The position numbers and the translations under genes are program-made. The notes beneath the pieces were generated by a model. The model had not been told where the DNA came from, searched no databases, and saw nothing but the letters and a program-made list of their open reading frames with translations. A stretch of 64,000 nt of DNA from sequence record MH560358; one strand, given 5' to 3'. Positions 3,362-63,749 of this stretch are shown in pieces; positions within the stretch are counted from its first letter, which is position 1; each line of letters opens with the position of its first letter. The stretch comes from Escherichia virus KFS-EC.

Positions 3362-4018
3362 ATGCAAGTTTCTGAAAAAGGGAAAGACTTTTCTATCTCA
3401 AATGTCCTGCGCGCTATTTTCACAACTAAAAGCACGGAGTTGCTCGTACTTCGTGTTTTTGCTGCCGTCGTGTTGTCCATATTAGCATTTGTCGTTTATA
3501 GTAAAAACGAGTTATTTGCGCTTTATAAAGAGACTCGTTATGAGACTTATGCTCACGTTCTCCAGGTAGAGAAAGACCGCAATTTTGATAATGCAGCACA
3601 GGAGCAGTTACAGATAGTTCATGTGTCGGCTGATGCCGATTTTTCTGCTGTTTTTAGTTTTCGTCCGAAAAACCTAAACTATTTTGTTGATTTGGTGGCA
3701 TATGAAGGAAAGTTACCGCATACAATCGATGAAAAAAATTTAGGCGGATTCCCTATCAATAAAACGAGTGAAGAATATCGTAGGCATCTTTTAGGTAAAT
3801 CCTATTTTACCGATAAAGATTTCCAGTATATTCCATCAAGAGAAAAGAAATTAGAGAGTATCGATATAGGGGTTATGTATTCTTGTCCTATATTCAATCT
3901 CGACAATGTCTATTCTGGTAGTATCTCCATTGCATGGAAGAATAAACCGGATATTGACATTGAGAATTTAGATACTCTTTGCAATCAATCTGCCAGAATC
4001 CTCGGAAGGATTAGATAA
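3362..4018 (+). CDS. t: holin (T4 t-type, class III holin)
   Basis: 218 aa, same length as T4 T; single N-proximal TM segment; extended identity to T4 holin (EQLQIVHVSADADFSAVFSFRPKNLNYFVDLVAYEGKLP, SCPIFNLDNVYSGSI, ARILGR). Confidence 0.92.
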   Translation: MQVSEKGKDFSISNVLRAIFTTKSTELLVLRVFAAVVLSILAFVVYSKNELFALYKETRYETYAHVLQVEKDRNFDNAAQEQLQIVHVSADADFSAVFSFRPKNLNYFVDLVAYEGKLPHTIDEKNLGGFPINKTSEEYRRHLLGKSYFTDKDFQYIPSREKKLESIDIGVMYSCPIFNLDNVYSGSISIAWKNKPDIDIENLDTLCNQSARILGRIR

Positions 4019-6308: not shown

Positions 6309-7067
6309 TTACTTGCAAACGTATTGATCTACATCAATTGCGCCACCGAATGTAGGATGACGTTTTTCGAATCGAATAGTTCCGTCGTTTGGTTCGAAAA
6401 CGGAGTATTCATATAGATCTTTCTTGCCAACATTCTTATAAAACCCGCCTTTAGTCATAACGGTTTCTTGTACGTTTGCTTTGTGTACGTTGTATTCATC
6501 AATGTATACAAAATCAACCATCTTCCCATTTTTAATTGTTACTTTAAGATCTCCTGGTTGGTTTCCATATTTTGCATACAGTGGGGCTTCTTTAATTTTG
6601 GTGGAAATTCCATCTTTCATACTCCACTCATAACGAACGGTGCATTGATAGGTAAAAGTTTCGACCTTCGGTTCTTCTACAACTTTTGCTTCCTGTTTCG
6701 GTTGTTCTTCGTCAACCTTCGCAGAAGTCTCTGAATCGCTTTCCGACGCAGTTTCTTCTTTAGGTAATACATTCATCAAGTTTTGAATTTGAGCGTTATA
6801 TACAGCCTCCAGTGGCTGAATCTGCCCGATATTGATCATTGTATCACGAACAGTTTTATTCCAGTTGCGTTGCTCTTGTTTAAGCGACAGATCAATCTTA
6901 ACAGCCTTAACATATACTTCATGAAGTTTAGAATCCAGTGCGGAGATTGACTCATTGGCACAAATAAACTTCTCTGATTTGGTAGTGGCTTTAGCGCAAT
7001 CAAAGGACGCAGCATTAGCACCGAAAGCAGTAGCAGAAAGAACGATAGCAGCGATAATGTTTTTCAT
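6309..7067 (-). CDS. secreted two-domain protein; N-terminal domain resembles the LprI/DUF1311 lysozyme-inhibitor-like fold
   Basis: Signal peptide MKNIIAAIVLSATAFGANA; then FDCAKATTKSEKFICANESISALDSKLHEVY...QRNW (CxxAxT...E..IC...LD..L..Y...Q..W pattern), acidic linker, ~110-aa C-terminal domain; RBS GAGGAA. Confidence 0.6.
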   Translation of the reverse strand: MKNIIAAIVLSATAFGANAASFDCAKATTKSEKFICANESISALDSKLHEVYVKAVKIDLSLKQEQRNWNKTVRDTMINIGQIQPLEAVYNAQIQNLMNVLPKEETASESDSETSAKVDEEQPKQEAKVVEEPKVETFTYQCTVRYEWSMKDGISTKIKEAPLYAKYGNQPGDLKVTIKNGKMVDFVYIDEYNVHKANVQETVMTKGGFYKNVGKKDLYEYSVFEPNDGTIRFEKRHPTFGGAIDVDQYVCK

Positions 7068-8784: not shown

Positions 8785-10142
8785 CCCTTCTTAAGTTCTT
8801 TAAGATCTTTCTTATATTCCTTCATTGCGGTCGTCTTTGTCCAATACTCATATTCACTATGATGTTTATCGGCATCTTTGACCAGTCGATCATACTCTTC
8901 TTGAGTAACGCTATATAATGGCATAGAAACTAGCTTATCGGCGTATGGACGCAGTTTTTCATGTCCATTTATGGATTGCATTACCTCGGCCTTTTTCTTG
9001 CCCTGTAGCTCGATTTCGCCCTTAATTACGCGATCGATAAATTCGGCTTTAGCCATTGCATAATTGTATGCTTCCAGCGTTTCCGCTTGCATCAATTCAA
9101 TGCGTTTATCGACATACCCTAATCGGATTTCGACGAATCGACGGATCAGATCGCTCGCTTTCTCGAATACTTCTACTAAACCACGTTCGTTAACTACTAC
9201 GATATTCTGGGCTACTAACTGCGTTAGTTTAAAATCCTTCATGATTTGCTCATGTCGAGCGGATTCATCTTCGCTTTTGAAATAATCGCGTTTCAGTGTT
9301 ACTTCAAATCTGAATCCGTCCTTAGAGCAACGGTCATTATACGATACAATCAGATCTTTTTCTTCCAGTGCATCCAGTACCGCTACATATTCTTCACGGT
9401 CGAACTTATAAGGAACTTCTGATATTGTCAGTTTAGTCTTGCCGTTTAGTTCATATGTACCCTCAAGAATCACACCATCGCGATCATCTCGCGGGATAAC
9501 TTTACCTGTGAATTTCGGGAATTGAACACTAGGTTCTTTATCCAGTTTTCCGGCAAGTGCTAGCTCTGTGCATTCAATAAGGCTTTCCAGTGAATGCGGT
9601 AAAATGTCAGTTTTATACCCTGTAGCAATACCACTAATACCATTAGCCAATACCATTGGCACAACTGGCAAGTAGAAAGCTGGCGGGATGTGTTCCAGAT
9701 CTTCGTGCTTAGGTGCGCAATTCATATCTTTATAGATTTTAAAGAAGTTTTCATGCACACGAGCAAAGATATAACGTGCCGCACCTGCTTTCTGGACTAA
9801 ACGCGATCCGAAGTTACCTTGACCGTCAAGCAGTGGAGTATTATTGCTCCATGTATTCGCCATGAGTGATCCGGCTTCTACGGCATTAGTTTCCCCGTGG
9901 TGATAACCCAACTCAGCAACACCAGATCCAATATCTGCCATCTTACGGAATTTCTTACGGTCGCCTTTACTCTTTTGCAAAGCACATTCCATAACAAAGC
10001 GTTGCACTGGTTTAAGTCCGTCTACCAATTGAGGAATCCCGCGTTCCTCGGCAGAATAGATCGCATATTCCTTAGCTTCATTATGTACAATGCTTTCAAG
10101 GCTGCGGTAAGTAACTGATTTATTCATCTTCACCTCATACAC
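8781..10142 (-). CDS. 52: DNA topoisomerase II medium subunit (GyrA-like), T4 gp52 homolog
   Basis: 453 aa (T4 gp52 about 442); GyrA-type N-terminal motifs (LKPVQRFV, active-site region); conserved position near rIIB. Confidence 0.88.
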   Translation of the reverse strand: MYEVKMNKSVTYRSLESIVHNEAKEYAIYSAEERGIPQLVDGLKPVQRFVMECALQKSKGDRKKFRKMADIGSGVAELGYHHGETNAVEAGSLMANTWSNNTPLLDGQGNFGSRLVQKAGAARYIFARVHENFFKIYKDMNCAPKHEDLEHIPPAFYLPVVPMVLANGISGIATGYKTDILPHSLESLIECTELALAGKLDKEPSVQFPKFTGKVIPRDDRDGVILEGTYELNGKTKLTISEVPYKFDREEYVAVLDALEEKDLIVSYNDRCSKDGFRFEVTLKRDYFKSEDESARHEQIMKDFKLTQLVAQNIVVVNERGLVEVFEKASDLIRRFVEIRLGYVDKRIELMQAETLEAYNYAMAKAEFIDRVIKGEIELQGKKKAEVMQSINGHEKLRPYADKLVSMPLYSVTQEEYDRLVKDADKHHSEYEYWTKTTAMKEYKKDLKELKKG

Positions 10143-10497
10143 GCTTACAAATCACATTCTTTACTTTATCAGATTTATCAGCCCAATCCAATAGCCATTT
10201 TAACGGAAGGATTGAAACAATAAACGGGGCAGCAATCAAAGCAAACATGATACACCGGATAATCAGGAAAGCGCAAGTAACAAAGCTAGCGATACTGATC
10301 CCGACAAAACAAAATACCATAGAAAACAGAGTAATGATATAGAAAGGCCAGAATACCCACTCCCGCATCTTAACGCCTTTGTATTCTCTGAATTGCTTAA
10401 AATCTACAAACAACTCTCGGATAGACGCATACAGGACCGAAAAATCATCTTTCATTGCTCTGAATGAGCAATCTTCTATTTTAGAATGACCTAGCAT
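10135..10497 (-). CDS. hypothetical membrane protein
   Basis: 120 aa with two strongly hydrophobic segments. Confidence 0.5.
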   Translation of the reverse strand: MLGHSKIEDCSFRAMKDDFSVLYASIRELFVDFKQFREYKGVKMREWVFWPFYIITLFSMVFCFVGISIASFVTCAFLIIRCIMFALIAAPFIVSILPLKWLLDWADKSDKVKNVICKRV

Positions 10498-54132: not shown

Positions 54133-54441
54133 TTAAAAATCTTCTTCCGGTTTATATCGACCGTCATCGACTGGTTTTGGACTGAATCCTTTATGCGTGC
54201 GCGGCTTCGCTTCCGGTTTACCAGCAATCATCAAACCAAAACATTTCAGCCCCTTATAACACATAACAATATCAACCACGGTCCACGTTATAGGCCATAC
54301 GATTGCAGCAATACAAAATGCTCCTGTATCGACCTCTTTGGTGTCCTTGTCGAATCTGGCGTACAAGCAGAATACTAGATACGAGATCATTGCACCAGTA
54401 GTCCAGATATAAAGCACATTAACAATATCTTGTGTTGTCAC
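54133..54441 (-). CDS. hypothetical membrane protein
   Basis: GTG 54441 with AAGGAGG RBS (5-nt spacing); two TM segments; track ORF (to 54555) would overlap the upstream gene by 100 nt. Confidence 0.4.
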   Translation of the reverse strand: MTTQDIVNVLYIWTTGAMISYLVFCLYARFDKDTKEVDTGAFCIAAIVWPITWTVVDIVMCYKGLKCFGLMIAGKPEAKPRTHKGFSPKPVDDGRYKPEEDF

Positions 54442-54451
54442 ATTATCCTCC

Positions 54452-54730
54452 TTACATGTCTTGCAGTGCATAAAAGCATTTTTCTTCATAGTCATAGAAA
54501 ATGTCAAAGTATGCTTTTTCCACATACTCGCCATTAATCCAAGCGGCAGTAACAATCAGAGTGGTCCAGTTAGATCCGCTCTCAACGGTAAAGGTTTTAA
54601 TACCCAGCTTCGCTGCCAAGTCGAACGCAAACCGGACGCAACCACGGCAGGAAGTGATATTGGAAGTTTTGATTTTAAAGCCACCGCGAGTTTTAGAAAT
54701 TTCTACTTTAGCGAAAGACAGGTTGATCAT
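54452..54730 (-). CDS. hypothetical protein
   Basis: ATG 54730 with GGAG RBS downstream of promoter 54772..54801. Confidence 0.45.
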   Translation of the reverse strand: MINLSFAKVEISKTRGGFKIKTSNITSCRGCVRFAFDLAAKLGIKTFTVESGSNWTTLIVTAAWINGEYVEKAYFDIFYDYEEKCFYALQDM

Positions 54731-59505: not shown

Positions 59506-59521
59506 CACCTAAAAACGAAAA

Positions 59522-59541
59522 AGCCACCCTTTCGGATGGCT
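59522..59541. terminator. bidirectional-looking hairpin terminator
   Basis: AGCCA ccctttcgga TGGCT hairpin with A-run upstream and T-run downstream. Confidence 0.5.
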
Positions 59542-59775
59542 TTTTGATTATATTTTATTCACGTCCATTTGTATAGTAGTGTTTGAATCGACCTTTGCTA
59601 AACTAGTTAAACATAGTAACCAATTCACCATCCCTTTCCAATGATAACACTTCCTCGTCTTAGACGGGTCTTCTGATTCGGCAGTAATTGAACACGCGAA
59701 AGTATGAGGAAGCCAAATAGTTGTGTTGATGCTAGTATTCTTTTACTTCTGGTATGTATCCCAATGTGACTAACA

Positions 59776-60174
59776 TTAAGCCAATCGAGTGAGTTTATAA
59801 ATTGTTTTAAAGCATAGAGCTTTGATATCGTCTAAAACGCTCTGTAACGAGCTATCAACATCATTATAAATCTCACTAGCCATTTGCGTTAACTCTTGCA
59901 AATAGGCAATTTCGCTCATCTCCTTGCGGACGACCAACGTTGGCTGATAACGACCAGTGATCCCAATATTGGTTTCAGTGAAATCATCAACCAATTCTTG
60001 CATTTCAAGATAGAACTCTTCTAGAGCCTTATGTTTTGCATAAGATCCAGGACCAGTTACTCCAAAATGCGCAGAATGCATATAAGTAACACTCATCAGA
60101 CATTCACCGATAAAGCGGTCAACTTTATTAGCTTTCCCCTCTTCGGACGTCTTTAGAAAATCAATGAATTTCAT
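59776..60174 (-). CDS. ferritin/Dps-like protein
   Basis: 132 aa from ATG 60174 (GGAG RBS); MHSAHFGVTGPGSYAKHKALEEFYLEMQELVDDF resembles the Dps HW.VKGP.F..LHE.FEE.Y helix; start overlaps stop of upstream gene by 14 nt. Confidence 0.45.
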   Translation of the reverse strand: MKFIDFLKTSEEGKANKVDRFIGECLMSVTYMHSAHFGVTGPGSYAKHKALEEFYLEMQELVDDFTETNIGITGRYQPTLVVRKEMSEIAYLQELTQMASEIYNDVDSSLQSVLDDIKALCFKTIYKLTRLA

Positions 60175-60463
60175 GTTCTCTATTCTCCATATTATGCAAC
60201 ATAACAAACTGTTGTGCGGCATATTCCCCCATAATAAAACACTGCTTAGAATCCATACATTTACTACGAGCATACATCTTCATAATATGGGCATGAAATT
60301 TCTGGCTGGTTTCAATGGAAGGAGATATTTTGTTTACATATACTATCATTGCACCGTCGAAATAATCAGTAAAGTCACCAGTTGGATCATATTGATCAGC
60401 ACTGACACTTCCGACCGCAGTCAAGCATATTGCCGCTGTTAGAGTTTTACGAATAAATGACAT
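60161..60463 (-). CDS. secreted/periplasmic hypothetical protein
   Basis: 100 aa; signal peptide MSFIRKTLTAAICLTAVGSVSA. Confidence 0.5.
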   Translation of the reverse strand: MSFIRKTLTAAICLTAVGSVSADQYDPTGDFTDYFDGAMIVYVNKISPSIETSQKFHAHIMKMYARSKCMDSKQCFIMGEYAAQQFVMLHNMENREHEIH

Positions 60464-60531
60464 AAGTCATTCCCCCAGATTTAAAATATTCAGTTATATT
60501 TATAATCTGGGGCTTTATTTATGATTAACTC

Positions 60532-61128
60532 TTAGTTGGTAGTGCCATCAATAAAATGTTTACGGCACACAGAAACATATTTATCCTCTGCACCAACTTC
60601 GATTTGAGCACCATCGCGAATAACATTACCCTCTTTATCTACACGAAGGACCATTGTTGCTTTCTTGCCACAATGACAAATACCCTTCATTTCGACCAGT
60701 TTATCAGCAAATGCCATCAATGCCGCAGATCCTTCAAATAGATTGCCCTGAAAGTCAGTGCGAAGGCCATAGCACAGTACAGGGATATTTGCATCATCAA
60801 CAAGCGCACACAAGCCTAAAACATGCTCTTTAGTCATAAATTGGGCTTCATCTACAAATACAGCATCAGGACGCCAGCGATCTGGTCTACGCTTACCTAA
60901 CGATTCACGATAAACCAAGTCGAAAAGATCATCCGATTCAGTGAAGGTGATCGCTGGAGCACTTAGACCAATTCGGGAAACAACTTCACTTTCTGAATCT
61001 CGATTATCAATCGCTGGCTTAAGAATTAATACTCGCATATCACGTTCGGTATAGTTATAAGCACTTTGTAACAGAGAAGTTGATTTGCCAGCGTTCATAG
61101 ATGCATAGTAGAAATATAATTGCGCCAT
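60532..61128 (-). CDS. tk: thymidine kinase
   Basis: 198 aa (T4 193); P-loop MNAGKST, VDEAQF, C-terminal zinc-binding CHCG...C. Confidence 0.92.
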   Translation of the reverse strand: MAQLYFYYASMNAGKSTSLLQSAYNYTERDMRVLILKPAIDNRDSESEVVSRIGLSAPAITFTESDDLFDLVYRESLGKRRPDRWRPDAVFVDEAQFMTKEHVLGLCALVDDANIPVLCYGLRTDFQGNLFEGSAALMAFADKLVEMKGICHCGKKATMVLRVDKEGNVIRDGAQIEVGAEDKYVSVCRKHFIDGTTN

Positions 61129-61421
61129 TAATTAATCTCCAAAAATCCAGCAAGACCTAAACCGATATAAGTCCAGATACCAATAAAAAAGATGTTAATG
61201 CTCATGGCAAGGATAAACCCTTTTAGCGTTTTAGGATATCCAACCCAATATTCCAGACCATCTTCTAACCGGATCAGTTTATTGCCCTGAGAGTCCATAT
61301 CGACTACAACATGTTTATTTCGAGATTGCAATAGATATTGTTTTACAATCTCTACACCCGCCATAATAACAATAACGAAAATAAAAGTCCACACAACAAG
61401 ATTAATGATAGTCTCAAGCAT
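61128..61421 (-). CDS. hypothetical membrane protein
   Basis: 97 aa with N- and C-terminal TM segments; stop overlaps tk start. Confidence 0.5.
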   Translation of the reverse strand: MLETIINLVVWTFIFVIVIMAGVEIVKQYLLQSRNKHVVVDMDSQGNKLIRLEDGLEYWVGYPKTLKGFILAMSINIFFIGIWTYIGLGLAGFLEIN

Positions 61422-61656
61422 TTTCTATCACCTCCACCCAATCAGGTGTTTCCTGAAAGACTCCTTCACCTTCATGATGGTCGCAACCTTTATTGCTGCA
61501 ATACATCCACCAATCCCACATTCCCCACGGTAAACGCTGCATATCGTCGTTACAGCAAGTGAAGATGATAGGCCAACCACATCTACCACAACGGCAGTTT
61601 TCCTTCATGTGAGCGGTATTAGGCTTCTTCATAGATGACTCCAATATAATCGACAT
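61414..61656 (-). CDS. hypothetical Cys/Trp-rich protein
   Basis: 80-aa ORF; CRCGRCGW and CSNKGCDHH clusters. Confidence 0.45.
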   Translation of the reverse strand: MSIILESSMKKPNTAHMKENCRCGRCGWPIIFTCCNDDMQRLPWGMWDWWMYCSNKGCDHHEGEGVFQETPDWVEVIENA

Positions 61657-61859
61657 TTACATTTAGGGCAATGCGGTTCTTTAATATAATACCCGTCTGT
61701 CTTTGGAACACTAACAGGAGCGGTTTTTATATTGTATTCAATGAAACAACGAAAACAAGTTACGTTTTCTACAGACTGACGTTTCACCCAATCACCGGAA
61801 TATAGATCATTTTTATTTGTCATATTCAACCACCACAATGTTAATGTCTGGAGTAGCAA
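61629..61859 (-). CDS. hypothetical zinc-ribbon protein
   Basis: 76-aa ORF; CFRC...CPKCKC. Confidence 0.45.
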   Translation of the reverse strand: MLLQTLTLWWLNMTNKNDLYSGDWVKRQSVENVTCFRCFIEYNIKTAPVSVPKTDGYYIKEPHCPKCKCRLYWSHL

Positions 61860-62268
61860 TATTAATGATCTCTTCTACACATTCCCACTCAAGGCCACCG
61901 ATACCGCAACCGATTTTAGGAATATAGAAAGGCTGTATAGCACCCTCAAAAACATCATTGAGAGACTCAAATCCTTTCAGGATAGCACCATATTCAGCAT
62001 TTGGACCCGGTCGGAATTGGGTATAGAGATTCACCCCGCACCAGTTATAACCATTAACTTGATGCGTCCAGACACTAAACCCACCCAGCTTTTCGACCTT
62101 ACCGCGAGAAGTTTGCTTGTCAATCTCTAACGCTTGCGGGAACTCTTTCGCGATCTTCGCAGCAATACCAGCGCCCATAGTATGAAAACAATTACAACCA
62201 TGAATTAAATGACCGTTTCCTTGTTTAAACAGGGCGATGAGATCGCCCTTTACAGTATCAATAATCAT
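61813..62268 (-). CDS. macro-domain protein (ADP-ribose binding/processing)
   Basis: 151 aa; HGCNC...MGAGIA...G.....GG matches the macro-domain N-terminal signature. Confidence 0.6.
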   Translation of the reverse strand: MIIDTVKGDLIALFKQGNGHLIHGCNCFHTMGAGIAAKIAKEFPQALEIDKQTSRGKVEKLGGFSVWTHQVNGYNWCGVNLYTQFRPGPNAEYGAILKGFESLNDVFEGAIQPFYIPKIGCGIGGLEWECVEEIINIATPDINIVVVEYDK

Positions 62269-62283
62269 AATATAAACCTCACA

Positions 62284-62643
62284 TTAGTCACGGGAAGACA
62301 ACCCAGCCATAAAACGGCTTAACAGTGTGTCGCGATAAGCAAAGCATAATTGCTTATCAGGGGCAGTATCACACAGGTTACGTTTTGTTTTAGCAAAGCT
62401 GGCAATACTCAGATCCCACGCTCGATTTTTTCGTTTTTCGTCTCGACCTTGTTTGTATGCTTCATCAAGTTCGAGCGCGATAAAATCACTACACATGTTA
62501 TCATCATCACAGAAAGTTTTAATGATCTTTTTGTTGATCTCAAATCCTTTGTATTCGAACTTTGGATAAGGGCGCTCATTACTAGCAAGCGCACCAGCAG
62601 AGAACATCATAGCAATCATAGCAATTATTGTCAACTTTTTCAT
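62284..62643 (-). CDS. secreted/periplasmic hypothetical protein
   Basis: 119 aa; signal peptide MKKLTIIAMIAMMFSAGALA; four Cys. Confidence 0.5.
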   Translation of the reverse strand: MKKLTIIAMIAMMFSAGALASNERPYPKFEYKGFEINKKIIKTFCDDDNMCSDFIALELDEAYKQGRDEKRKNRAWDLSIASFAKTKRNLCDTAPDKQLCFAYRDTLLSRFMAGLSSRD

Positions 62644-62650
62644 ATATTCC

Positions 62651-63241
62651 TCAATAGCGTTTAGTCTTAAGAATGCCTTTACTCTTTAGATGGTTAGCCT
62701 TTTTTAGTACGTCATCAGCATAACCTAATCCGGCTTTATAGTTCCATCCAGCATTGTAAGAAGCTAGCGCGAGTCTGATATTACCGTTTCGAATATCCAG
62801 CCAGTATGCTAACTCATCCATCGCGTAGAATGCAGAAACCTCGCGATTCATGATAAAGTTGATAGTCTGGCGATCACTCATTTTAACACCGCGCTTTGCA
62901 TTTTTCGCTTTCACCGTTTTAAGGTAATTTTGAAATAATCCATAAGCATGATGATTTTTCTTTGGTGCTAAGTTTGCACCCGCGCTTGATTCTTGCCATG
63001 CGATACCCGCCAGGATGTGACCTAAACCCTTTCCGTTATAGCGAATATTCGGATGGTACTTTTTCAACTTACCGCTTTTCTCGAATTGCTCGCCGTATTG
63101 ATAGGCGAAATGTAAATTATCTAGTTGGTGTGCTGTAAAGTTGTCTATCGGCGCTTTTTTGATCGGTGCGCTAGTCGATGCGTGTGTAGCACCAACGGCT
63201 AGTGACAGACTCAATACTATCGCTTTTAGAACTTTTAACAT
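62651..63241 (-). CDS. secreted lytic transglycosylase (SLT domain)
   Basis: 196 aa; signal peptide MLKVLKAIVLSLSLAVGATHA; SLT motifs GIAWQESS, GLFQ, AYNAG. Confidence 0.7.
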   Translation of the reverse strand: MLKVLKAIVLSLSLAVGATHASTSAPIKKAPIDNFTAHQLDNLHFAYQYGEQFEKSGKLKKYHPNIRYNGKGLGHILAGIAWQESSAGANLAPKKNHHAYGLFQNYLKTVKAKNAKRGVKMSDRQTINFIMNREVSAFYAMDELAYWLDIRNGNIRLALASYNAGWNYKAGLGYADDVLKKANHLKSKGILKTKRY

Positions 63242-63326
63242 TAATTTCTCCTGTTTGGCTTAACTTTCTGATTCCATAATATAGCCCTATCACCAGAAAG
63301 TCAAGCATTAATTTAACCAATTTCCA

Positions 63327-63749
63327 TTATTGGTCTACCTTCAAAACAACAGCCGACATTTTACCCGCCAGTCGTTTTGGATTCTCTATAATCATTCGGC
63401 AGCATAGACCGTGATATGGCTTACCATCTTCGATTAGATCTACTGTCATCCCGATCCACATGTTACCGTCAGTAATTTCTAATCGATTAGGTCGGTCTTC
63501 CATTTTCAGGAAGTCGAAGATCTCCGGCAAACGAGTTTCTATCTTATTGAATAGTTCCATTGTCTTATGTTCATCGATATGACGATCGGTTAGACGGTCG
63601 ATCATATGCGGACTAAAGCGAATGAAAATATACTCACCATAACCATCATTCAAGCACTTTTCTTTGATCTGCGCATTGGTTTTGCGCATTTCGGTTTCGA
63701 AGAATCTACGCAGCTTACTACGGCGAACATGTACGTTAATTGTTTCCAT
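63327..63749 (-). CDS. regB: site-specific RNA endonuclease RegB
   Basis: 140 aa from ATG 63749; VRRSKLRRFFE near N-terminus and RLEITDGNMW...CRM...RL.GK block resemble T4 RegB as recalled; T4 order tk-(vs)-regB. Confidence 0.65.
   Translation of the reverse strand: METINVHVRRSKLRRFFETEMRKTNAQIKEKCLNDGYGEYIFIRFSPHMIDRLTDRHIDEHKTMELFNKIETRLPEIFDFLKMEDRPNRLEITDGNMWIGMTVDLIEDGKPYHGLCCRMIIENPKRLAGKMSAVVLKVDQ

What the first reader, a model, noticed from the sequence alone, without database searches (positions are those of the whole stretch)
60161..63241. Cluster of exported proteins near tk, including a secreted lytic transglycosylase
Three proteins with clear signal peptides (60161..60463, 62284..62643 and the SLT-domain protein 62651..63241 with GIAWQESS, GLFQ, AYNAG) and a two-TM membrane protein (61128..61421) are encoded close together on the early strand. 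A signal-peptide-bearing transglycosylase is distinct from the cytoplasmic endolysin and would act on peptidoglycan from the periplasm.
Basis: partly seen in the sequence, partly recalled or inferred. Interest (0 to 1): 0.5.

Follow-up and report, generated by a model that had tools for sequence, protein, structure and literature searches.

The report
T4-type rI, vs, vs.1 exported proteins
The flagged stretch is the well-known early gene block regB–vs.1–vs–tk.4–tk–rI of an RB49-like (T4-type) coliphage, and its signal-peptide transglycosylase is the already annotated Vs.1 protein; the one real loose end is that its partner Vs, named a modifier of a cytoplasmic tRNA synthetase, looks like an exported protein.

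Summary
The window is a Krischvirus, 99.9% identical to Shigella phage Sf20. The four ORFs are orthologs of T4 rI (antiholin), vs and vs.1, plus a genus-specific membrane ORF with two hydrophobic segments.

Vs.1 passes the Pfam SLT threshold. Its catalytic Glu84 (AWQES), GLFQ and SYNAG motifs are essentially invariant across the family. Its AlphaFold model matches lytic transglycosylases best, and 62 of 66 homologs keep a Sec-type signal peptide.

This is not new. The nearest GenBank record already annotates the SLT domain, and the similarity was published in 2003 and 2006.

The block is not one functional unit. RI acts on holin T. tk, tk.4 (AdfM) and two zinc-ribbon ORFs, none of which has an export signal, lie in between.

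What the tools add:
- vs.1 and vs form a conserved, translationally coupled pair (gap of 7 nt or less in 44 of 52 loci).
- All 45 Vs orthologs carry signal peptides, four of them with a lipobox, and all have four invariant cysteines. This conflicts with the name "valyl-tRNA synthetase modifier".
- Published T4 transposon data show that vs and vs.1 mutants share a fitness defect, which is worse in minimal medium.
- Vs shows a weak resemblance to CP12.

Verdict: already known genes, of low to moderate interest, with one testable annotation paradox.

The parts
63276..63304 (-). sigma-70-type early promoter-like site TTGACT-17-TATTAT upstream of vs.1, followed by the Shine-Dalgarno sequence AGGAG
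   Evidence: a promoter is annotated at the same place in phage GEC-3S
62651..63241 (-). vs.1: 196-aa Sec-signal GH23/SLT-type lytic transglycosylase-like protein (mature form about 19.8 kDa, pI 9.9)
   Evidence: Pfam SLT 25.6 bits; phrog_600 1.3e-59; 53% identical to T4 Vs.1, E 1e-55; AF2 model pLDDT 84.8 with lytic transglycosylases as top PDB matches
63179..63241 (-). predicted signal peptide of Vs.1 (residues 1-21, THA|S)
   Evidence: low-confidence linker at residues 21-31 in the model
62990..62992 (-). codon of the putative catalytic Glu84 (AWQES motif)
   Evidence: invariant in 21 homologs; aligned with AWNES of EtgA; codon checked
62284..62643 (-). vs: 119-aa exported four-cysteine helical protein (mature form about 11.6 kDa), annotated 'valyl-tRNA synthetase modifier'; translationally coupled to vs.1 (TGA, then GAGG, then ATG within 7 nt)
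   Evidence: phrog_1256 1.8e-33; 27% identical to T4 Vs with all four Cys aligned; AF2 pLDDT 82
62584..62643 (-). predicted signal peptide of Vs (residues 1-20, ALA|S)
61813..62268 (-). tk.4/adfM macrodomain protein with no export signal (context, not part of the exported set)
   Evidence: Pfam Macro; DarG-like; T4 tk.4 = AdfM, an anti-DarTG2 factor
61629..61823 (-). small zinc-ribbon ORF (context)
   Evidence: PF23903 6e-23; start as annotated in JSE
61414..61632 (-). small zinc-ribbon ORF (context)
   Evidence: PF23895 8.8e-34
61128..61421 (-). 97-aa membrane ORF with two hydrophobic segments, restricted to Krischvirus, function unknown
   Evidence: phrog_16027; found only in 57 Krischvirus records; annotated 'predicted membrane protein' in Sf20
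60532..61128 (-). tk, thymidine kinase (context)
   Evidence: Pfam TK 1.1e-51
60161..60463 (-). rI antiholin (lysis-inhibition regulator), exported
   Evidence: Pfam Antiholin 82.8 bits; phrog_1246; matches the T4 RI structure 6psk, with the Cys pair aligned
60398..60463 (-). predicted signal peptide of RI (residues 1-22, VSA|D)
   Evidence: T4 RI shown to have a cleavable signal peptide (PMC8385771)
59776..60174 (-). rI.-1 (DUF5856), last gene of the block
59518..59545 (-). intrinsic-terminator-like hairpin (12 bp) with a T run, closing the block
   Evidence: a terminator is annotated at the equivalent place in GEC-3S
3362..4018 (+). holin T, the periplasmic binding partner of RI
   Evidence: PF11031 203.8 bits; phrog_860

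Best explanation
The stretch is the conserved T4-type early gene block (regB)-vs.1-vs-tk.4-...-tk-rI-rI.-1 of an RB49-like Krischvirus. It holds two separate periplasmic functions, not one exported-protein cluster.

(1) RI is exported by a cleavable signal peptide and binds the periplasmic domain of holin T (3362-4018) to impose lysis inhibition. This is by homology to T4.

(2) vs.1 and vs form a translationally coupled two-gene module transcribed from an early sigma-70-type promoter.
- Vs.1 is secreted by the Sec pathway, and its signal peptide is cut after THA. It is a family-1 (GH23) lytic transglycosylase with Glu84 as the catalytic acid. It is inferred to cleave glycan strands of the sacculus to 1,6-anhydro-MurNAc ends.
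- Vs is co-exported, folds into a small helical protein stapled by two disulfides, and is inferred to act with Vs.1 as regulator, inhibitor or targeting partner.
- The module is not the bulk endolysin. It is an accessory wall-remodelling activity that raises phage fitness, most visibly in slow-growing cells on minimal medium.

Shown here: gene identities, motifs, fold, conservation of the signals, synteny and coupling. Inferred: export, enzymatic activity, the Vs-Vs.1 partnership and the physiological role.
For: Identity:
- 99.9% to Sf20 and 98% to JSE, with the same gene order as T4.

Vs.1:
- Pfam SLT is above the curated cut-off.
- E84, G101, S161, Y162, G165 and Y174 are invariant. S86, F103, Q104 and N163 are nearly invariant.
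- The AF2 model has pLDDT 84.8, with E84 at the end of helix 74-85.
- The 15 best Foldseek PDB matches are MltD, Slt and Cj0843 lytic transglycosylases plus one Ralstonia chitinase (3w6e), with probability about 1.
- The best PDB sequence match is the specialised transglycosylase EtgA, with AWqES aligned to AWNES.

Export signals:
- Present in 62/66 Vs.1 homologs and 45/45 Vs homologs; 4 Vs orthologs carry a lipobox.

Pairing:
- A Vs homolog lies directly downstream in 44/52 loci, with a gap of -4 to +7 nt.

Expression:
- Promoter and terminator sites.
- T4 vs and vs.1 are classed as early RNA and middle protein, and both proteins were detected by mass spectrometry.

Fitness:
- T4 vs and vs.1 insertions have about 10-fold lower read means than their neighbours in liquid LB.
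- Both drop further in M9: vs log2FC -2.19, padj 0; vs.1 -0.87, p 0.0055.

RI:
- Pfam Antiholin 82.8 bits and the 6psk match.
- Holin T is present in the window.
- The T4 RI signal peptide is cleavable.
Against: - No muralytic activity or localisation has been measured for any Vs.1 or Vs protein.
- The Foldseek E-values are weak (0.012 at best, TM 0.4-0.5).
- Vs.1 occurs without a detectable Vs in Aeromonas, Vibrio, Ackermannviridae and Felixounavirus phages, so the partnership is not obligate.
- The shared T4 transposon phenotype could be a polar effect of vs.1 insertions on vs.
- Classical biochemistry assigns Vs to cytoplasmic valyl-tRNA synthetase (as cited in PMC8076793 and in the HIDEN-SEQ preprint).
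- Vs has no recognisable fold or family that would indicate what it binds.
Confidence: 0.6

Rival explanations
1. Vs.1 is an accessory signal-peptide endolysin. It is exported early, stays latent in the energised periplasm, and is unleashed when holin T collapses the membrane potential. In this way it helps the main endolysin dissolve the wall. Vs would delay or limit it.
For: - It has the same architecture (signal peptide plus SLT domain, about 190 aa) as the experimentally Sec-dependent, holin-activated endolysin of Campylobacter phage F352.
- Firehammervirus F379 has a small overlapping gene that damps its SLT endolysin (PMC7692668).
- In loci L060 and L064 the Vs.1-like gene sits directly upstream of an i-spanin/o-spanin pair.
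- One Felixounavirus record annotates the homolog as 'putative lysin'.
Against: - The gene is early and not in a lysis context: it sits next to regB, nrd, rII or pnk in every lineage inspected.
- A separate M15 endolysin exists in the same phage type.
- T4 e mutants do not lyse even though vs.1 is present (established T4 genetics, from my own knowledge).
- The F352 endolysin shows no detectable sequence homology to Vs.1.
Confidence: 0.2
2. Vs is what its name says: a cytoplasmic peptide that binds host valyl-tRNA synthetase. Its N-terminal hydrophobic stretch is not used for export, or only part of the pool is exported. Its adjacency to vs.1 is incidental gene order.
For: - The literature assignment is cited.
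- The M9-specific defect of the T4 vs deletion could fit a role in translation or amino-acid supply.
- The weak CP12-like pattern would suit a small adaptor that clamps onto an enzyme.
Against: - A Sec-type signal is present in 45/45 orthologs despite sequence turnover.
- Four orthologs carry a lipobox, which only makes sense after export.
- There are four invariant Cys arranged as two predicted helix-stapling pairs.
- Tight coupling to another signal-peptide protein.
- His-tagged full-length T4 Vs was insoluble in the cytoplasm.
- The mature T4 Vs, at 11.0 kDa, is closer than the 13.1-kDa precursor to the roughly 10-kDa factor I recall from the 1977 purification (plus my own recollection).
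Confidence: 0.15
3. The module protects the infected cell envelope against secondary attack (superinfection or lysis from without). Vs would inhibit an incoming tail lysozyme in the way Spackle does, or Vs.1 would edit the wall around entry sites.
For: - Both proteins are made early and are periplasmic by prediction.
- Vs is a small helical disulfide protein, as Spackle is (my own knowledge).
- The fitness loss appears in liquid competition, where superinfection is common.
- The phage also encodes another exported protein with an LprI 'lysozyme inhibitor' domain.
Against: - Vs has no sequence or fold similarity to Spackle, Ivy, MliC/PliC or LprI.
- T4 sp insertions show no comparable depletion in the same data set.
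- The idea does not explain the dependence on M9.
Confidence: 0.1
4. Vs.1 is a catalytically dead peptidoglycan-binding protein that merely keeps an SLT-like fold.
For: - The Pfam score is only just above threshold.
- Structural matches are modest.
Against: All family-1 catalytic motifs (E-S, G-L-F/M-Q, S/A-Y-N-A-G, Y) are invariant or nearly invariant across distant phage lineages. That pattern is expected for an active enzyme.
Confidence: 0.05

Closest known systems
T4 Vs.1 (Y06E_BPT4; phrog_600), the 'Vs.1 / transglycosylase SLT domain-containing protein' family of large virulent myoviruses
   Same: - 53% identity, E 1e-55.
- Same position between regB and vs.
- Same signal peptide and catalytic motifs.
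- 100% identical to the GEC-3S protein.
   Different: - The window protein has a linker about 13 residues longer after the signal peptide.
- The T4 protein itself has no demonstrated function, so orthology does not give a mechanism.
T4 Vs ('valyl-tRNA synthetase modifier', phrog_1256, PF26829)
   Same: - 27% identity, with all four Cys, the signal peptide and the C-terminal GLS motif aligned.
- Same position between vs.1 and tk.4.
   Different: - The predicted periplasmic location contradicts the annotated cytoplasmic target.
- Binding to the synthetase was not testable here.
T4 RI antiholin (PF24205; PDB 6psk, 6psh)
   Same: - Strong family match.
- Conserved Cys pair.
- N-terminal export signal.
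- Holin T present in the window.
   Different: Only distant sequence identity to T4 RI (PDB E 0.009). The lysis-inhibition phenotype is not tested for Krischvirus.
Signal-peptide endolysins with an SLT domain (Campylobacter phage F352 Lys); the F379 SLT endolysin with its overlapping small 'lysis inhibitor' gene
   Same: - Signal peptide plus SLT catalytic domain, about 190 aa.
- Sec-dependent access to the wall.
- A small adjacent gene that modulates the enzyme.
   Different: - No detectable sequence homology beyond the shared Pfam family.
- Vs.1 is an early gene, and the phage has a separate M15 endolysin.
- The small gene is downstream here, not upstream.
Specialised periplasmic lytic transglycosylases of secretion systems (EtgA, VirB1/IpgF type)
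   Same: - Small GH23 enzymes with a signal peptide that are not bulk lysins.
- EtgA is the best PDB sequence match, with the catalytic and AYNAG motifs aligned.
   Different: - E-value only 0.08.
- No secretion machine is encoded nearby. Adjacency to spanin genes is seen only in two distant loci.
CP12 (PF02672), the small two-disulfide adaptor of Calvin-cycle enzymes (compared with Vs)
   Same: - Same order of features: helix, Cys pair, helix, then a C-D-x-x-P-D-x-x-x-C-x-x-Y loop with identical spacing.
- hhalign score 25.9, against 10.1 +/- 2.0 for 150 column shuffles.
   Different: - Below every database-wide threshold: PDB E 0.55; Pfam best E 0.065, in 2 of 20 members.
- No AWD_VEEL core.
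- Vs has a signal peptide and an extra C-terminal helix.

Membership tests
Family-1 / GH23 lytic transglycosylase (Pfam SLT PF01464) | Match to the SLT profile above the curated threshold | tested here: met
   25.6 bits against a cut-off of 21.3, residues 76-167
Family-1 / GH23 lytic transglycosylase (Pfam SLT PF01464) | Catalytic Glu in an E-S motif at the end of a helix | tested here: met
   E84-S85 in AWQESS; E84 is invariant in 21 sequences and lies at the end of helix 74-85 in the model
Family-1 / GH23 lytic transglycosylase (Pfam SLT PF01464) | Motifs G-L-(M/F)-Q and (A/S)-Y-N-x-G, plus a downstream Tyr | tested here: met
   G101-L-F103-Q104, S161-Y162-N163-A164-G165 and Y174 are invariant or at least 90% conserved
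Family-1 / GH23 lytic transglycosylase (Pfam SLT PF01464) | Lysozyme-like alpha-helical fold | tested here: met
   AF2 pLDDT 84.8; the top Foldseek PDB matches are MltD, Slt and Cj0843 (probability 0.92-1.0), but with E of 0.012 or worse and TM 0.4-0.5
Family-1 / GH23 lytic transglycosylase (Pfam SLT PF01464) | Non-hydrolytic cleavage giving 1,6-anhydro-MurNAc products | not testable with these tools
   Requires enzyme assays
T4 Vs.1 orthologous group | Sequence similarity and the regB-vs.1-vs-tk.4 gene order | tested here: met
T4 RI antiholin (PF24205) | Profile match, exported N-terminus, conserved periplasmic Cys pair, and a cognate holin T in the genome | tested here: met
   82.8 bits against a cut-off of 27; signal; Cys pair aligned with 6psk; holin T 203.8 bits
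T4 RI antiholin (PF24205) | Lysis inhibition on superinfection | not testable with these tools
   This is a phenotype
Vs, valyl-tRNA synthetase modifier (phrog_1256 / PF26829) | Homology to T4 Vs | tested here: met
   phrog 1.8e-33; BLASTP 4e-8 with the four Cys aligned
Vs, valyl-tRNA synthetase modifier (phrog_1256 / PF26829) | Cytoplasmic location compatible with binding ValRS | tested here: not met
   Sec signal in 45/45 orthologs and a lipobox in 4. This is a prediction only
Vs, valyl-tRNA synthetase modifier (phrog_1256 / PF26829) | Physical binding to, and modification of, valyl-tRNA synthetase | not testable with these tools
   Requires biochemistry
Signal-peptide (Sec-exported) endolysin | Cleavable signal peptide fused to a muralytic domain | tested here: met
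   (predicted)
Signal-peptide (Sec-exported) endolysin | It is the phage's lysis enzyme, expressed with or linked to the holin | tested here: not met
   Early promoter and early-gene context; a separate M15 endolysin in Sf20; holin T lies 59 kb away on the other strand
CP12 (PF02672), considered for Vs | Profile match above threshold | tested here: not met
   Only 2 of 20 members match, best E 0.065; PDB CP12 hits have E 0.55-1.7
CP12 (PF02672), considered for Vs | Two Cys pairs with a C-terminal C-x3-P-x4-C loop | tested here: met
   Vs CDTAPDKQLC compared with CP12 CDDNPDAAEC; hhalign probability 37-66%, z about 8 against shuffles
LprI/DUF1311, Ivy, MliC/PliC lysozyme inhibitors, considered for Vs | Sequence or fold match | tested here: not met

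The most novel reading that the evidence does not exclude
vs.1-vs is a dedicated two-component periplasmic wall-remodelling module of T4-type phages. The protein that has been called 'valyl-tRNA synthetase modifier' for 50 years would then be an exported, disulfide-bonded, possibly CP12-like adaptor that binds and controls the Vs.1 lytic transglycosylase, or another periplasmic enzyme. The synthetase association would be secondary: either formed after cell breakage or a mis-assigned ORF. The strong minimal-medium defect of T4 vs mutants would then be an envelope phenotype, not a translation phenotype.
Probability: 0.2. Interest if true: 0.65.

Novelty: already known. Interest (0 to 1): 0.3.

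Why it matters
As submitted, the finding re-discovers annotated T4-type genes, so it changes little.

The follow-up is worth recording for three reasons:
- Vs.1 is one of the most widely conserved accessory genes of large virulent myoviruses. It is present in 2084 of 50,697 phage records, across Straboviridae, Ackermannviridae and Felixounavirus, and it still has no function.
- Its usual partner, Vs, carries an annotation that is hard to reconcile with its universally conserved export signal.
- A 2025 transposon screen shows both genes matter for T4 fitness, especially on minimal medium.

A simple localisation and epistasis experiment could therefore settle an old, unexplained T4 phenomenon and correct an annotation that is copied into hundreds of genomes.

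Tried and rejected
- **Vs.1 as an ortholog of the characterised Campylobacter F352 signal-peptide endolysin.** BLASTP and hhalign found no similarity outside the signal peptide. It is an analog only.
- **The 146-aa lipoprotein at the vs position in Aeromonas phages as a divergent Vs.** No match to the Vs profile even with filters off.
- **RegB control of vs.1 through a GGAG site in its Shine-Dalgarno sequence.** The site is present in the window but in only 8 of 36 distinct loci, so it is not a conserved feature.
- **A scan of viral contigs with the Vs alignment.** Whether Vs ever occurs without Vs.1 was therefore not tested.
- **Direct PDB sequence searches with single proteins.** Nothing for Vs or Vs.1.
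- **Older primary papers (Miller 2003; Müller & Marchin 1975).** Not held in the library. How ORF 60.9 of the original 1986 sequence record (X04567) came to be named vs could not be checked.
- **My initial assumption that RI has a SAR domain.** Dropped after finding the 2021 paper showing a cleavable signal peptide.

Full report
**What the window is**

A megablast of 59700-63400 finds 57 phage records, all of the RB49/JSE type (genus Krischvirus). The best is Shigella phage Sf20 at 99.9% identity. Annotated records (JSE, GEC-3S, Sf20) and T4 itself give the same gene order on the - strand: regB, vs.1, vs, tk.4, small ORFs, tk, rI, rI.-1. The finding therefore lies in the classical T4 early region between regB and rI.

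**Checking the observation**

The four ORFs are at the stated coordinates.

- Hydropathy and a simple n/h/c plus -3/-1 rule give N-terminal export signals for three of them: RI (…GSVSA|DQ), Vs (…AGALA|SN) and Vs.1 (…GATHA|ST). They also give two hydrophobic segments for ORF 61128-61421.
- Vs.1 matches Pfam SLT above the curated threshold, at 25.6 bits against 21.3.
- The quoted motifs are present, except that the third reads ASYNAG rather than AYNAG.
- Among about 96 --strand ORFs in the window, the heuristic gave three clear export signals (6309-7067, Vs, Vs.1). RI, which that scan did not score, makes four, and three of the four lie here. Because vs.1 and vs are one coupled unit, this is a mild enrichment.

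**Identity of each part**

- **RI (60161-60463).** It matches the Pfam Antiholin family at 82.8 bits and the T4 RI crystal structure, with the Cys pair conserved. Its partner, holin T, is at 3362-4018.
- **ORF 61128-61421.** This is a membrane protein found only in the 57 Krischvirus records. T4 has the soluble tk.1-tk.3 there.
- **Genes in between.** These are tk, two zinc-ribbon ORFs, and the macrodomain Tk.4. In T4, Tk.4 was recently named AdfM, an anti-DarTG2 factor. None has an N-terminal export signal.
- **Conclusion.** The block is not a functional cluster of exported proteins.

**Vs.1**

- It is 53% identical to T4 Vs.1 and 100% identical to the GEC-3S protein.
- In an alignment of 21 homologs down to 30% identity, E84, G101, S161, Y162, G165 and Y174 are invariant. 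S86, F103, Q104 and N163 are nearly so. This is the full motif set of family-1 lytic transglycosylases.
- The AlphaFold2 model (pLDDT 84.8) places E84 at the end of a helix.
- Its best PDB matches are lytic transglycosylases (MltD, Slt, Cj0843), with probability about 1 but modest E-values and TM-scores.
- The best PDB sequence match of the family profile is the specialised transglycosylase EtgA, with the catalytic and AYNAG motifs aligned (E 0.08).
- The family is present in 2084 phage records across Straboviridae, Ackermannviridae and Felixounavirus, always among early or nucleotide-metabolism genes. It is often mislabelled RegB.
- Nothing here is new. Sf20 gp234 is annotated as SLT/lysozyme-like, and the similarity was reported in 2006, citing the 2003 T4 genome review.

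**Vs**

- It is a fast-evolving, phage-restricted protein: only 20 cluster representatives among 1.8 billion proteins.
- Every ortholog examined (45 unique) has a Sec-type signal. Four have a lipobox (LSGC). The mature part has four invariant cysteines plus G66, Y103 and G114.
- The model (pLDDT 82) is a four-helix protein in which the Cys pairs sit at helix-loop junctions. It has no informative structural or family match.
- A Vs gene follows the Vs.1 gene with a gap of -4 to +7 nt in 44 of 52 loci. In the window the vs.1 stop codon overlaps the ribosome-binding site of vs.
- Vs.1 can occur without a detectable Vs in Aeromonas, Vibrio and non-Straboviridae phages.
- The predicted export is hard to reconcile with the name 'valyl-tRNA synthetase modifier'. 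Consistent with export, His-tagged full-length T4 Vs formed inclusion bodies.

**Expression and phenotype of the T4 orthologs**

- A near-consensus sigma-70 promoter and Shine-Dalgarno sequence precede vs.1, and a strong terminator follows rI.-1.
- In T4, vs and vs.1 are classed as early RNA and middle protein, and both proteins were detected.
- In the HIDEN-SEQ transposon data both genes are non-essential on LB plates.
- In liquid LB their insertion read means are about ten-fold below those of their neighbours: 26.6 and 22.6, against 178-652.
- They fall further in M9: vs log2FC -2.19, padj 0; vs.1 -0.87, p 0.0055, padj 0.155. A clean vs deletion plaques poorly on M9.
- The shared direction fits a common pathway, but polarity of vs.1 insertions on vs cannot be excluded.

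**Mechanism**

- The best-supported reading is two independent periplasmic functions: RI-holin T lysis inhibition, and a Vs.1/Vs module in which Vs.1 is an exported GH23 lytic transglycosylase and Vs its co-exported partner.
- Vs.1 is unlikely to be a bulk endolysin. It is early, Krischviruses have a separate M15 endolysin, and T4 e mutants fail to lyse despite having vs.1 (my own knowledge).
- Functionally it resembles signal-peptide SLT endolysins (Campylobacter phage F352) and the specialised transglycosylases of secretion systems. It is not detectably homologous to the former and only weakly similar to the latter.

**A lead on Vs**

- The Vs profile repeatedly hits CP12 just below threshold.
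- hhalign gives 37-66% probability over about 65-70 columns. The score is 25.9, against 10.1 +/- 2.0 for 150 column shuffles and 12.5 for the reversed alignment.
- The signal is driven by an identically spaced C-D-x-x-P-D-x-x-x-C-x-x-Y loop.
- This may be convergence on a short motif, so it is recorded as a lead only.

**Verdict**

The genes are already known and annotated. The residual interest lies in the unexplained function of the conserved vs.1-vs pair and in the export-signal paradox of Vs.

Noticed in passing
window 6309-7067 (-): A 252-aa protein with a classical signal peptide (…AFGANA|AS) and a Pfam LprI 'lysozyme inhibitor' domain just above threshold (23.8 bits against 22). It is the only other clear Sec-signal protein in the window. 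Homologs occur in 113 phage records: Krischvirus, and Klebsiella and Aeromonas T4-like phages.
   Followed up: partly
window 62284-62643 (-) and Vs orthologs in L004-L065: Vs shows a sub-threshold but shuffle-resistant resemblance to CP12, with the same C-x3-P-x4-C-x2-Y loop. The hhalign score is 25.9, against 10.1 +/- 2.0 for column shuffles.
   Followed up: partly
window 61813-62268 (-): Tk.4 is a DarG-like macrodomain protein. The T4 ortholog was named AdfM, an anti-DarTG2 factor, in a 2025 preprint.
   Followed up: partly
GenBank records hit (e.g. Salmonella phage Mooltan, L086 2495-3112): Many Vs.1 homologs are annotated 'RegB' or 'endoribonuclease'. This looks like an annotation slipped over from the neighbouring gene; they carry the SLT domain, not the RegB domain.
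   Followed up: no
L060 3001-5064 and L064 2953-5389: In these distant T4-like contigs the Vs.1-like gene is followed directly by an i-spanin-like and an o-spanin-like (lipoprotein) gene and then a PseT-like kinase. In Felixounavirus the homolog sits between rIIB and polynucleotide kinase.
   Followed up: no
L039 3871-4311, L041 4118-4558, L063 4088-4528: Aeromonas T4-like phages lack a detectable Vs. They have an unrelated 146-aa lipoprotein immediately upstream of tk.4.
   Followed up: partly
window 62606-62634 (-): A strong sigma-70-like site (TTGACA-17-TATGAT with an upstream TG, 11 of 12 matches) lies inside the first codons of vs. It could give a transcript starting within vs and reading into tk.4.
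   Followed up: no
window 10135-10497 (-) and 54133-54555 (-): Two further small ORFs with predicted membrane segments (three segments, phrog_16033; two segments, phrog_16460). They have no known function and no Pfam match.
   Followed up: no
window 61414-61632 and 61629-61823 (-): Two overlapping small Cys-rich ORFs match the recently defined phage zinc-binding families PF23895 and PF23903. They replace T4 tk.1-tk.3 at this position.
   Followed up: no
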